Positions 7,246 to 63,689 of a stretch of 64,000 bases of DNA are shown piece after piece. The stretch spans positions 9,548,001-9,612,000 of the forward strand of contig NC_043010.1 of assembly GCF_006345805.1 (NCBI RefSeq), in the 5' to 3' direction. The position numbers were made by a program, and so were the translations under genes. How positions within the stretch are numbered: position 1 is the stretch's first letter; each line of letters starts with the position of its first letter. A model generated the notes under the pieces. That model ran no database searches. It had not been told where the DNA came from and saw nothing but the letters and a program-made list of their open reading frames with translations. This DNA comes from Octopus sinensis. Its lineage: Eukaryota.

Positions 7246-8394
7246 AAGAAATTGTAAACAATAGATATGTATGTGCACAGAGTTTCTCACAGTTTCCATC
7301 TAACAAAGTTTACTCAAAAGGTATTGGTCATCTCAAGACTATTTATTTACAACATTCACTTGCTCTTGGTGCTATGTAGTGGTGAAATAAACTTCATATC
7401 AACACCAGCATGACACACGAATTTGATCTAAAATTTGCAGCTCTTAAAATATAGATCATACTATATAAATGTTAAATGTTATTGTTAACAAAGTTACTGT
7501 ATGAAACATTTAAAAGCTAACTGGGTATAAAAACGAAGCTAGACAAAAAAAAAAAGAAAGAGAGAAAAGAAACAAATGAAATAATTGATAATAGTCAATG
7601 ACAAATGTTTCTTATCCATTTATATCACAAATATTTTATTATAAAACTAAAATGTTAAATTTTCTAATGTATTCTTGGCTTTCTTCTGTCTTTTGATATA
7701 TATATGCATCTGGAATTTTTTACTTTTGTTGAATCTTATGTGTTTATAAATCACTTGAATTAGCTCACAATATATAATTGGCACTTACTTTATTAACTCT
7801 GATGAGACGAAATGCAAAATCTGCCTCTGAAAGATTTTGACTCAAAATCTAAAAGAGCTAATTAAATACAGCATTGTATTTTGACCAACATTGTCAATAC
7901 AGCCATTCATAATCCTTATGTTTATATATATTCAAAAAAGTTTGCATAAATGTGTAAATGTATATTCATATTTTATAGTCAATAATTTTCAAACATTTTA
8001 AATTAATTTTAAAAGATTTTAAATAGACTGAATGTCATAGAAAAATGGCTTTAATTTAGAGAAACAAGCCAAAAGAGTTGGAGAGAGATTTTAGGCATTA
8101 CAAAATAACAATCTACTGTATTAGTTTAAAAGAATGATAAATGTGACAGTGTAAGAATTCTTCTTAATATATTCCAAACAAAAGTCAATATATTTAGCCA
8201 TTACTGAGATGAAAAGTCACACCTTATCACATCTTTACAAAGAGATGAAGTGTATAGTTTGAAAATTTCTGAAAATATTTGCCTTCACTTCCTAACAAAT
8301 GATTTTTATGAGCTCGACTTAAATGAAAAACCAATAAATTATGTCAAACAGGAAGAAAATTAAGTTCCTAATGACGAAAAGGGAGGAGTAAATA

Positions 8395-26534: not shown

Positions 26535-26540
<6 letters not shown>

Positions 26541-26719
26541 TATTAAATTAGAGATAAAACCACTATTAGGCAAATCATACAATGAAAAACTTAAGCCAAT
26601 ACATAAGATTAATTAATTTATATTATTTTAAATATATATCAAAATTATTAAAAAAAGATAATTAGTATAACACTACGATCGTTTCATGGCTGTCCAATTC
26701 GTAAAAATTCGAGTTACAG

Positions 26720-26723
<4 letters not shown>
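26535..26723 (-). mobile_element. (TA)n-embedded element with a 5'-truncated hammerhead ribozyme
   Basis: Minus strand ATGACTGT..ACAGCCAT GAAA CGATCG TA gtgttata: stem II, GAAA, palindromic stem III, GUA site; the CUGANGA box is replaced by (TA)n. Confidence 0.55.
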
Positions 26724-39629: not shown

Positions 39630-39745
39630 TGTTTATCACCCAACGAGATACATTTGCACTACCGGATGTTCCTGAACCAGTTGTTGAGTGTCCCACCCAT
39701 GAGGGATCAGTGTTAGATGTGTCGAAACAATTGTCGTGATAAATA
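39630..39745 (+). ncRNA. Type I hammerhead ribozyme fold with mutated core (probably inactive)
   Basis: Stem I tgtttatcac/gtgataaata; core CCAACGA instead of CUGANGA; long stem II gatacatttgcact/agtgttagatgtgtc; GAAA; palindromic stem III acaattgt; GUC site. Confidence 0.7.
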
Positions 39746-39856: not shown

Positions 39857-40426
39857 CATATATAGTTAATCCAAACAAGAAAGCACAAAAAAACACAACA
39901 ACGCGAGGATGTGGAACAAATATAGTATTATTGGACGCTCAGGAAAGAAGGAAAGAAAATAATACTACCACTACCACAAAAATAACAACCTCCTCTTTAA
40001 GAGGTCATGTGTTTTGGAAAGGTTTAATGAAAGCGCTTACACACCAGAAAAAGACCTCTTCACAAAAAAGGTTCGTAACATCCTCATAAAAGATTTTTTA
40101 ATATTTTTTTTCAAAATCACCTTTACACTTCAAAAACTGTATTAAGTAATCCTCATAGACTTTCAAATATATATATATATATATATATTTAATCAATATA
40201 GGGTGGCAGAAAAAAATTTTGTAGAATTCTTTTTGCCACCAGCGGCCTAGTGGGAAAAAATTAAATAGTCATAGACCATTTTAAGTTCAACATCAACAAT
40301 CAGGAACGGCCATGATGGCCATGAATAACGCCACAGCTAGAAATTAACAGCAAAAGCTTCAAACTCAGCGCAAATAAAGATTAATTCCGTAACAGGAGAA
40401 AATTTAAAAAACATTTACCCTGTTAA

Positions 40427-40532
40427 TTTTCTTGTACGATGCACCGTTTCATCTGCTGTTTAATGGTAAACTAACCTGATTAAATTGAATCAAGCCAATC
40501 TTCCATAGGCCTCAGATTCTTCAGCAAGAAAT
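40427..40532 (-). ncRNA. Type I hammerhead ribozyme (repeat copy 1)
   Basis: Reverse complement of the motif at 41369-41474. Confidence 0.8.
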
Positions 40533-41368
40533 AGCCAAGTCGGAACAGATATTTTCACGAGGCATTTCAAACCCTGCCAAGGTAATATCTGACCTACCTA
40601 AATTTTCAAATCGTCGCGCGCCAAATATTTATCGGCAGCAAATAAATATAAGCCGTCGATTCCATACGGAATTAACCACAAAACATGACAATTCATAATA
40701 ATCAATATAGGGGGCAGAAAAAAATTTTGTAGAATTCTTTTTGCCACCAGCGGCCTAGTGGGAAAAAATTAAATAGTCATAGACCATTTTTAAGTTCATC
40801 AACATCAACAATCAAGGAACGGCCATGATAGGCCATTCACCCACTAGAAATAACAGCCAAAGCTTCAACCGCAAATAAAGATTAATTCCGTAAACAGGAG
40901 AAAATTTAAAAAACATTTACCCTGTAATTTCTTGTACGATGCACCGTTTCATCTGCTGTTTAATGGTAAACTAACCTGATTAAATTGAATCAAGCCAATT
41001 TTTTTAAATTTTCTCCTGTTTACGGAATTAATCTTTATTTGCGGTTGAAGCTTTGGCTGTTATTTCTAGTGGGTGAATGGCCTATCATGGCCGTTCCTTG
41101 ATTGTTGATGTTGAACTTAAAAATGGTCTATGACTATTTAATTTTTTCCCACTAGGCCGCTGGTGGCAAAAAGAATTCTACAAAATTTTTTTCTGCCACC
41201 CTATATTGATTAATTATGATTTTCTGGTTAATTCCATAATGGAATCGACGGCTTATATTTATATTTGCTGCCGATAAATTTGGCGCGAGTGCGACGATTT
41301 GAAAAATTTCAGATATTACCTTGGCAGGGTTTGAAATGCCTCGTGAAAATATCTGTTCCGACTTGGCT

Positions 41369-41474
41369 ATTTCTTGCTGAAGAATCTGAGGGCCTATGGA
41401 AGATTGGCTTGATTCAATTTAATCAGGTTAGTTTACATTAAACAGCAGATGAAACGGTGCATCGTACAAGAAAT
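41369..41474 (+). ncRNA. Type I hammerhead ribozyme (repeat copy 2)
   Basis: Stem I atttcttg/caagaaat; CTGAAGA 41377-83; stem II atctg/cagat; GAAA 41451-54; self-complementary stem III acggtgcatcgt; GUA site at 41466. Confidence 0.85.
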
Positions 41475-41854
41475 TACAGGGTAAATGTTTTTTTAAATTT
41501 TCTCCTGTTACGGAATTAATCTTTATTTGCGGTTGAAGCTTTGGCTGTTATTTCTAGTGGGTGAATGGCCTATCATGGCCGTTCCTTGATGTTGATGTTG
41601 AACTTAAAAATGGTCTATGACTATTTAATTTTTTCCCACTAGGCCGCTGGTGGCAAAAAGAATTCTACAAAATTTTTTTCTGCACCCTATATTGATTAAT
41701 TATGAATTTTCTGTTAATTCCGTAATGGAATCGACGGCTTATATTTATTTGCTGCCGATAAATTTGGCGCGAGTGCGACGATTGAAAATTTTAGGTCAGA
41801 TATTACCTTGGCGGGTTTGAAATGCCTCGTGAAAATATCTGTTCCGACTTGGCT

Positions 41855-41961
41855 ATTTCTTGCTGAAGAATCTGAGGGCCTATGGAAGATTGGCTTGATT
41901 CAATTTAATCAGGTTAGTTTACCATTAAACAGCAGATGAAACGGTGCATCGTACAAGAAAT
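41855..41961 (+). ncRNA. Type I hammerhead ribozyme (repeat copy 3)
   Basis: Identical core and stems; GUA site at 41953. Confidence 0.85.
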
Positions 41962-42079
41962 TACAGGGTAAATGTTTTTTAAATTTTCTCCTGTTTACGG
42001 AATTAATCTTTATTTGCGGTTGAAGCTTTGGCTGTTATTCTAGTGGGTGAATGGCCTATCATGGCCGTTCCTTGATTGT

Positions 42080-42113
<34 letters not shown>

Positions 42114-42295
42114 CATTATATATAAGGGCTTAGTAAAATAAATTACTTTGCCACATACTGAACTCATTAGAAATAGCAGCTAAAGAAATTTCTTCAGCTA
42201 TTTCTAATACTTAAAAGATCTCTCTCAGATAGTGTTTGCCTAAACCAACTCACAAAAGTATGGGGGAAAAAACATTAAAAACAAGTGCAAAGGTT

Positions 42296-42354
42296 ATTTG
42301 AGAACGTACGTTTCTAGATTAGTCAATTCGACATTTCTTTCTTCAGCTCAGAAT
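42296..42354 (-). ncRNA. Type I hammerhead ribozyme, different family, slightly degenerate
   Basis: Minus strand attctgag CTGAAGA aagaaatgtcgaattgactaatcta GAAA cgtacg TT ctcaaat; palindromic stem III acgtacgt; first stem II pair is an A/A mismatch. Lies in a (TA)n-flanked insert at 42111-42435. Confidence 0.65.
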
Positions 42355-42454
42355 TCCTTGAATGGTCCCTTTACATACTGAACACTTGGTGAAACTGATT
42401 AATAATTAATTAATTTTACCCTCAATTGTTGAAATTATATATATATATATATAT

Positions 42455-42604: not shown

Positions 42605-42893
42605 GAATTTCACTTGCTTCAGCTTTGTTTTATATTCATTGTATTTTGGCCAGAGTTCTTTCATCACACTCCTGTGACCTCATCAGTGGTTCTTTGCTTT
42701 CTTCTTCTTTCTTTTGTTTTTTCTTTGTAGGATTGTTAGTAAGGAGAGACACAAAAAAGAAAGAAGAAAGCAAAGGGCCACTGATGAGATCACAGAAGTG
42801 TGACGAAAGAACTGTAGCCCAAATGCATTTAATATAAAATAAAGCTGAAGCAAGTGAACACCAGATGTATAGTGCATGTGTTTTCATTGGCTA
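42455..42893. mobile_element. Divergent inverted duplication of a Penelope-like terminal segment, each arm with a minimal HHR
   Basis: Arms about 42548-42724 and 42745-42893 are reverse complements; HHRs at 42646-42692 (-) and 42775-42820 (+): gggcca CTGATGA gatcaca gaag tgtgac GAAA gaactg tagccc. Confidence 0.7.
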
Positions 42894-63255: not shown

Positions 63256-63689
63256 TATACAACAGGTTTCTTTTAGTTTCCATCTACCAAACCCACTCAC
63301 AAAGCTTTGGTCAGCCTGTGGCTAAAGTAAAAGACACTCGCCCAAGGTGCCATGCAGTGGGACTGAACTCGGATCCATGTGGTTGAGAAGCAAGCTTCTT
63401 ACCACATAGCCACTTCTGTGACTCCAATAAATAAATAATGTATGTATGTATTTATGTATGTATGTATGTATGAATGTATGTATGTATGCATGTGTATATG
63501 TTATATGAAATACGGTGTCCTTACAAGCAAGTAATATGCACATACCAGTTGCCAGGAATGTGCTTCTTACACAAAATTGGTCTATCCAAAGTTTGGTGGC
63601 TATTAAGCAATGTGTTTGTGGTTCTCCAGTGGGTTGGCTGTGTACTGATGAAGGAGCACAAAAACTCTTGAAATATGTATATACACCTA

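What the first reader, a model, noticed from the sequence alone, without database searches (positions are those of the whole stretch)
41451..41466. Loopless self-complementary stem III implies a dimer-dependent (double) hammerhead
Seen: stem III is ACGGTGCATCGT, self-complementary with G-U pairs. The other families show the same design with different sequences: ACAATTGT (39727), ACGTACGT (42304) and ACGATCGT (26675). Known: PLE, newt and ASBVd hammerheads with weak, palindromic stem III cleave as double-hammerhead dimers. Inference: cleavage is efficient only in multimeric transcripts, so a released monomer or circle would be stable.
Basis: partly seen in the sequence, partly recalled or inferred. 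Interest (0 to 1): 0.7.

Follow-up and report, generated by a model that had tools for sequence, protein, structure and literature searches.

The report
Dimer-favouring hammerhead in Penelope-type retrozyme
This is a hammerhead self-cutting RNA motif in a 487-base jumping repeat with thousands of relatives in the genome; its self-complementary third stem is predicted to make two neighbouring copies pair and cut together, a known design, but the stem is long enough that a single copy likely also folds and cuts, so strict dimer dependence is not shown.

Summary
The motif is real. 41451-41466 is the 3' half of an intact type I hammerhead (41369-41474) in a ~487-bp non-coding repeat inserted into (TA)n as tandem and inverted arms, the pattern of Penelope-like elements (PLEs) and animal retrozymes. 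The palindrome is maintained: 18 of 18 hammerhead clusters sampled have a self-complementary helix III (background 8-17%). One subfamily changed the central TGCA to TATA, a pair that can form only between two copies. The two-copy transcript's minimum-energy fold is the double hammerhead, 13.7 kcal/mol below two singles. But 'loopless' and 'dimer-dependent' overreach. Two of the three comparison sites are damaged in the window. Circle stability is weakly supported (0.057 active). Cleavage is untested. The design is published (PMC4209133, PMC7229834, PMC3088659), and this scan noted it before, in this genome and others. New member of a known kind, with a longer helix III and a long helix II insert.

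The parts
40999..42083 (+). Plus arm: 2.2 tandem ~487-bp units, 5'-truncated at unit position 22, ending at unit position 130 before (TA)n
40185..41002 (-). Inverted (minus) arm, 5'-truncated at unit position 420, ending at unit position 237 before (TA)n
41369..41474 (+). Type I hammerhead, copy 1
41369..41376 (+). Stem I 5' strand (pairs with 41467-41474, or with 41954-41961 in the double fold)
   Evidence: covariation
41377..41383 (+). Catalytic core CUGAAGA
41384..41450 (+). Stem II (5 bp) carrying a 57-nt insert that folds as a long hairpin
41454..41465 (+). Self-complementary 12-nt helix III: 3-4 bp hairpin alone, 12-bp duplex between two copies
41466..41466 (+). N17 (A of GUA); predicted cleavage 3' of this base
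   Evidence: hammerhead consensus; 5'-end clustering
41855..41961 (+). Type I hammerhead, copy 2 (helix III 41941-41952, N17 41953); predicted in-cis partner of copy 1
40428..40531 (-). Type I hammerhead, copy 3, on the inverted arm
40928..41002 (-). Truncated hammerhead 3' half (helix III and stem I 3' strand, no core) at the inversion junction
39630..39745 (+). Different family; 8-nt helix III ACAATTGT; core damaged (CCAACGA)
42299..42350 (-). Different family (~555-bp tandem unit); 8-nt helix III ACGTACGT; intact core, weak stem II
26540..26722 (-). Different family; 8-nt helix III ACGATCGT; window copy truncated, core absent

Best explanation
The site is helix III of an intact type I hammerhead in a non-coding ~487-bp tandem repeat, likely a non-autonomous Penelope-type element (retrozyme), and the ribozyme is predicted to prefer, but not to require, the double-hammerhead form. 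Steps: (1) Arms are transcribed as multimers (inferred). (2) With two copies in one RNA, their 12-nt palindromes would form a 12-bp helix III and their stem I strands would swap, giving two active sites that cut after GUA and release ~487-nt units (folding model). (3) A lone copy would form the single active fold part of the time (0.31 isolated, 0.001-0.09 in longer context), so monomers and circles would be cut more slowly, not protected outright (folding model). (4) Cut or uncut multimers, or circles, would be reverse-transcribed by a PLE enzyme primed at (TA)n from two fixed start points (unit positions 130 and 237), giving tandem and inverted arms. The anatomy is shown; the enzyme is inferred.
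For: Stems I and II covary across subfamilies. Helix III is self-complementary in 18 of 18 clusters of 168 distinct hammerhead contexts (14 strictly Watson-Crick), found without any constraint inside the AC...GT closing pairs; background is 9%/17% for 4-nt and 2.6%/7.8% for 8-nt inserts. The 12-nt class has five palindromic variants. A derived subfamily carries G6A+C7T+T9C among about 21 substitutions per 492 bp; G6-C7 can pair only between copies. Among the first 100 of 2,901 matches to a pattern allowing 16 variants, only TGCAT (68) and TATAC (32) occur. Amplified non-Watson-Crick variants are G-U on the ribozyme strand. The unconstrained MFE of 41357-41966 is the double hammerhead, ddG -13.7; mean ddG is -13.7 for 16 palindromic centres and -2.0 for 220 non-pairing ones. 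Lone-fold probability has median 0.18 for 108 12-nt contexts and 0.0035 for 49 8-nt contexts. PLE anatomy: 120 of 122 arms end near 130 or 237, 112 of 122 are followed by TA, and 46 of 47 two-armed insertions have one end of each type. An autonomous 778-aa RT plus GIY-YIG-like element in this genome carries the same hammerhead type in its 3' UTR. 16 of 122 arm 5' ends fall in the 12 nt at the predicted cut; the uniform null gives a best-window mean of 8.5, and 0 of 2000 trials reach 16.
Against: No cleavage data, and no run on record as RNA was found. Nearest-neighbour energies ignore Mg2+, tertiary contacts and the non-canonical A15.1-U16.1 pair. Lone-fold probabilities vary widely between subfamilies (8e-5 to 0.75). 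Clusters share descent, so the palindrome counts are not independent events, and the 12-nt class has only one change at a dimer-only pair. One copy with a non-pairing centre (ACGCACGT, L225) fell below the stem filter. The 5'-end peak includes both arms of some insertions, one duplicated locus and junctions that may be inherited, and could come from reverse-transcriptase pausing at stem I. No autonomous partner with sequence similarity to this family was found, and Pfam gave no hit on the PLE protein. 8 of 9 Xenopus retrozyme dimers did not cleave in vitro (bioRxiv 10.64898/2026.07.22.740005).
Confidence: 0.6

Rival explanations
1. Strict dimer dependence: the single fold is too weak in practice, only multimers (or two RNAs in trans) cut, and the released monomer or circle is stable.
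For: The hairpin is marginal (-1.2 kcal/mol). In longer natural context the single fold drops to 0.001-0.09 and is negligible once copy 2 is made. Some subfamilies have lone-fold probability below 0.01. No canonical loop 1-loop 2 contact is evident. Axolotl hammerheads with 1-2 bp helix III cleave poorly alone and well as dimers (PMC7229834). Genomic arms cross up to 8 uncut sites.
Against: Lone-fold probability is 0.31 here and 0.57-0.75 in the TATA subfamily, whose circle is 0.31 active in one locus. Coral and mussel retrozyme monomer clones cleave at 0.8 and 0.1 per min. ASBVd minus strand with 3 bp in stem III is described as active as a single hammerhead (PMC6466107). 35 of 72 loci have at most one complete hammerhead per strand.
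Confidence: 0.25
2. The ribozyme works mainly as a single hammerhead, and the palindrome is an inherited relic or is kept for another reason, such as DNA symmetry or template switching during insertion.
For: The 12-nt helix III is the most hairpin-competent class in the genome sample, and co-transcriptional folding would let copy 1 fold about 380 nt before copy 2 exists.
Against: Symmetry is kept while letters change, including the dimer-only G6-C7 to A-U change inside this family. Tolerated mismatches are G-U on the ribozyme strand. The double fold is 9-14 kcal/mol more stable in all six 12-nt loci folded.
Confidence: 0.1
3. The motif is carried along but cuts little in vivo; spread relies on uncut multimeric transcripts.
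For: Arms routinely span uncut sites. PLE hammerheads show low in vitro activity (PMC4209133). Most Xenopus dimers tested were inactive.
Against: Core and stems are kept with covariation across subfamilies 70-90% identical, and 5' ends pile up at the cut site.
Confidence: 0.05

Closest known systems
Metazoan non-LTR retrozymes (Cervera and de la Pena 2020, PMC7229834, parts 2-4 of 6 read; Li, Clavereau and Pollet, bioRxiv 10.64898/2026.07.22.740005, abstract and Results read)
   Same: Non-coding, AT-rich tandem repeat with one type I hammerhead per unit; dimers to multimers; co-occurs with autonomous PLEs; proposed to be non-autonomous PLE derivatives.
   Different: Unit (~487 bp) is slightly above the 150-450 bp of the 2020 paper but within the preprint's 51-972 bp. 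Helix III is 12 nt rather than 1-2 bp plus tetraloop; helix II carries a 57-nt insert; insertions are two-armed in (TA)n with two fixed 3' ends. Expression and circles were not shown here.
PLE pLTR hammerheads with small palindromic helix III (Cervera and De la Pena 2014, PMC4209133, passages; Perreault et al. 2011, PMC3088659, passages and Fig. S8 legend; Lunse et al. 2017 seen only as a citation)
   Same: Type I topology, palindromic helix III and loop, proposed dimer activation between tandem copies.
   Different: Described helix III is 1-2 bp with a 2-4 nt loop (a 10-bp dimer stem in Aedes). Here the dimer stem is 12 bp and the monomer hairpin is marginally stable.
PLE insertion anatomy (Craig et al. 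2021, PMC8557442, passages)
   Same: 5'-truncated partial tandems, an adjacent inverted 5'-truncated copy, microsatellite targets, an extension at only one end; non-autonomous head-to-tail derivatives are known for Chlamys.
   Different: The one-end extension is about 107 bp here against 30-40 bp described; the clade of the mobilising PLE was not determined.
Double hammerheads of ASBVd and newt satellite 2 (Forster et al. 1988, seen only through PMC6466107 and PMC4209133)
   Same: Two copies merge their stems III into one helix.
   Different: Those have 2 bp or fewer in stem III; this one has 3-4.

Membership tests
Type I hammerhead ribozyme | Core CUGANGA, GAAA, UH with three helices, stem I open | tested here: met
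   covariation of stems I and II
Type I hammerhead ribozyme | Self-cleavage after N17 | not testable with these tools
   Indirect only: 5'-end clustering at the site
Type I hammerhead ribozyme | Rfam hammerhead model match | tested here: inconclusive
   No hammerhead family among the 150 rows listed of 329; 179 rows not shown. The long helix II insert may defeat the models (inference).
Dimer-dependent (double) hammerhead | Palindromic helix III conserved as a pairing element | tested here: met
Dimer-dependent (double) hammerhead | Second copy in tandem on the same strand, double fold favoured | tested here: met
   37 of 72 loci have two or more complete copies on one strand
Dimer-dependent (double) hammerhead | Helix III too weak to form in a monomer (1-2 bp) | tested here: not met
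   3-4 bp hairpin, dG -1.2; lone active fold 0.31; met for the 8-nt class
Dimer-dependent (double) hammerhead | Monomer inactive and tandem active in assay | not testable with these tools
   needs in vitro kinetics
Metazoan non-LTR retrozyme | Non-coding tandem repeat of a few hundred bp with one type I hammerhead per unit | tested here: met
   (no credible ORF in family loci)
Metazoan non-LTR retrozyme | Expressed as linear and circular monomers | tested here: inconclusive
   Only assembled contigs of runs guessed to be RNA
Non-autonomous PLE derivative | PLE insertion anatomy (5' truncation, inverted arm, one-end tail, microsatellite target) | tested here: met
Non-autonomous PLE derivative | Sequence similarity to the pLTR of an autonomous PLE | tested here: inconclusive
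   No match to the one autonomous family fetched. In 12-nt-class loci the only PLE-protein match was one weak hit (L017, E 2e-5), not followed up. Other PLE families were not surveyed.

The most novel reading that the evidence does not exclude
In this family helix III has grown to 12 nt, long enough for a stable duplex between separate RNA molecules (-17.5 to -18.8 kcal/mol against about -6 to -10 for the common 8-nt palindromes) while still exposing a palindromic tetraloop in the monomer. It could act like a retroviral dimer-initiation loop that pairs two circles or monomers, switching on cleavage in trans and bringing two templates to one insertion site, which would explain the strict two-armed 130/237 rule. 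Test so far: the two arms of an insertion are nearly as alike as units within an arm (median 3 against 1 shared differences; 22 between insertions), so two unlike templates were not seen.
Probability: 0.08. Interest if true: 0.6.

Novelty: new member of a known kind. Interest (0 to 1): 0.2.

Why it matters
Palindromic helix III and dimer activation are published for PLE and retrozyme hammerheads, so the idea is not new. The family is useful as a natural graded series: 8-, 10- and 12-nt palindromes, and G-U against Watson-Crick subfamilies within one recently active element. It allows a direct test of where a hammerhead passes from needing a partner to merely preferring one, and of how animal retrozyme circles avoid cutting themselves, which PMC7229834 leaves open.

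Tried and rejected
The Rfam scan listed only microsatellite-driven false matches in its top 150 of 329 rows. No RNA holder was listed. Contigs laid cover the unit and showed no change inside 41942-41952 while neighbouring stem positions varied, but they missed the TATA subfamily known from the genome, so they were not used as evidence. The search for an autonomous partner was negative within the loci fetched. Circle against multimer template: units within an insertion differ by a median of 4 substitutions against 5 to the nearest other insertion, which does not discriminate. Two-template insertion was not supported. Lunse et al. 2017 and Davies et al. 1991 were not held, and supplements of the cited papers were not opened; they may already show 12-nt helices III or cephalopod examples. 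Paper searches listed no paper on this family. The organism was not determined; 'octopus-like' is recalled from the repeat make-up and is also the wording of earlier notes.

Full report
Observation. The stated bases are GAAACGGTGCATCGTA, the 3' half of a type I hammerhead at 41369-41474: stem I of 8 bp, CUGAAGA, stem II of 5 bp with a 57-nt hairpin insert, GAAA, helix III ACGGUGCAUCGU, cleavage triplet GUA. Further complete copies lie at 41855-41961 (+) and 40428-40531 (-). The 12-mer is self-complementary with two G-U pairs, as stated, but it is not loopless in one strand: it can close a hairpin of 3-4 bp (dG -1.2 kcal/mol), whereas the 8-nt palindromes at the three other sites give +1.4. Of those three, 39727 has a damaged core and 26675 has lost its core by truncation.

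The element. The hammerheads sit in a ~487-bp unit repeated 2.2 times on the plus strand and preceded by an inverted arm, the whole set in (TA)n. The genome is 2.72 Gb. The family's exact flanks occur 237 times against 0 for the reversed control, and 90 of the first 100 listed carry the same 12-mer. The general 12-nt pattern occurs 7,066 times against 545 (some hits are 8-nt motifs read long), the 8-nt pattern 28,144 against 680, and the 10-nt pattern 1,568 against 561. In 72 loci, chosen because they hold an intact motif, 122 of 124 arms were clear of the locus edge: 64 end near unit position 130, 56 near 237 and 2 elsewhere; 112 are followed by TA; 46 of 47 two-armed insertions have one end of each type. 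This matches the PLE anatomy described in PMC8557442 (passages), with a longer tail. An autonomous element with a 778-aa RT and GIY-YIG-like frame (motifs read by eye; no Pfam hit) carries a same-type hammerhead in its 3' UTR, but it shares no detectable sequence with this unit.

Is the palindrome selected? Hammerheads were collected from fetched loci with no constraint between the closing AC and GT, and clustered with helix III masked. Of 168 distinct contexts, 18 clusters at 80% identity all have a self-complementary majority helix III, 14 strictly; at the loosest clustering it is 10 of 10. Background in neighbouring and random DNA is 9% strict and 17% with G-U for 4-nt inserts, 2.6% and 7.8% for 8-nt inserts. 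Candidates with weak stems were dropped first, among them one copy with a non-pairing centre. The centres differ (ATAT, AATT, ACGT, GTAC, GATC, AGCT, TGCA, TATA), so symmetry is kept while letters change. In the 12-nt class five palindromes occur. The TATA form is nested within the TGCA clade and differs by G6A, C7T and T9C among about 21 substitutions; G6 and C7 can pair only with another copy. Only those two forms appear among the first 100 of 2,901 matches to a pattern that allows 16. These are few independent events, but they point one way.

Single or double? The unconstrained minimum-energy fold of the natural two-copy stretch is the double hammerhead, 13.7 kcal/mol below two singles; five other 12-nt loci give 9.2-13.9. 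The gain needs the palindrome: mean -13.7 for 16 Watson-Crick centres, -7.4 for 20 with G-U, -2.0 for 220 others. Yet the lone ribozyme reaches its active secondary structure with probability 0.31, falling to 0.001-0.09 as natural downstream sequence is added. Over distinct contexts the median is 0.18 for 108 12-nt motifs and 0.0035 for 49 8-nt motifs. The circle gives 0.057 here and from 1e-5 to 0.31 in relatives. These are nearest-neighbour predictions without Mg2+ or tertiary contacts. Literature agrees that length matters: coral and mussel monomer clones cleave at 0.8 and 0.1 per min, axolotl ones poorly unless dimeric (PMC7229834), and ASBVd minus with 3 bp is described as active singly (PMC6466107).

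Footprint of cutting. 17 of 122 arm 5' ends lie within -5 to +12 of the predicted cut against 4.5 expected. The best 12-nt window holds 16, reached in 0 of 2000 uniform trials, and the next holds 9, which is within chance. The ends are not all independent, and pausing at stem I could give the same peak, so this is suggestive. Arms also cross up to eight uncut sites, so templates include circles or uncut multimers; unit similarity within insertions did not tell these apart, and the two arms did not look like unlike templates. No RNA evidence could be had.

Comparison and verdict. Palindromic helix III, dimer activation and the protection-of-monomers argument are stated in PMC4209133 (passages), shown for several repeats in PMC3088659 (Fig. 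S8 legend) and reviewed in PMC6765202 (passages); retrozymes as non-autonomous PLE derivatives are argued in bioRxiv 10.64898/2026.07.22.740005. Five paper searches listed nothing on this family; supplements were not opened. Earlier notes of this scan report the same design in this and other genomes; they are unchecked and not counted as support. The finding is a real, ordinary member of a known kind with a somewhat longer helix III: it works like a double hammerhead, and membership among dimer-dependent ones fails on the weak-helix criterion. Interest 0.2.

Noticed in passing
window 42650-42689 (-) and 42781-42808 (+): Inverted pair of short hammerhead motifs with a minimal helix III (A-G-AA-C-U); the plus copy has G at N17 and is probably dead. 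Typical minimal PLE type.
   Followed up: no
window 7799-7832 (+) and 63640-63686 (+): Further hammerhead-core matches; 63640 has 5-bp stems I and II and helix III ATATGTAT.
   Followed up: no
G000 genome-wide: About 35,000 hammerhead-pattern matches above control with a 50-80 nt helix II region, well beyond the 7-17 nt spacer of the published core search; many have the core variant CCGANGA.
   Followed up: partly
L157:2701-5037 (G000:C1:79874500-79882000): Young autonomous PLE with an open 778-aa RT plus GIY-YIG-like frame; its C-terminal part matches many copies at 95-98%; 3' UTR hammerhead with CCGAAGA core and ACATATGT or ACATGTGT helix III. No Pfam hit; clade not assigned.
   Followed up: partly
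family loci: Strict two-end rule: 46 of 47 two-armed insertions pair a position-130 end with a position-237 end, a tail of about 107 bp against the 30-40 bp described for PLEs.
   Followed up: partly
window 26540-26722 family (L091-L105): Very young (99-100% identical) ~210-bp elements whose 5' ends lie 15-40 nt upstream of the hammerhead core and which carry one hammerhead with a mismatched stem I; several are inverted pairs.
   Followed up: partly
window 42130-42430 family (L081): ~555-bp tandem unit containing an internal inverted copy of about 80 bp of itself and a short-helix-II hammerhead with a GUU site.
   Followed up: partly
L009: Two related families (72% identical) are inserted within one (TA)n-rich kilobase; (TA)n tracts repeatedly collect unrelated hammerhead elements.
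   Followed up: partly
G000:C1 listing: An old dispersed family with a 10-nt helix III varying among ACCGATTGGT, ACCAATTGGT, ACCGATCGGT and ACTGATTGGT (read by eye from the listing).
   Followed up: no
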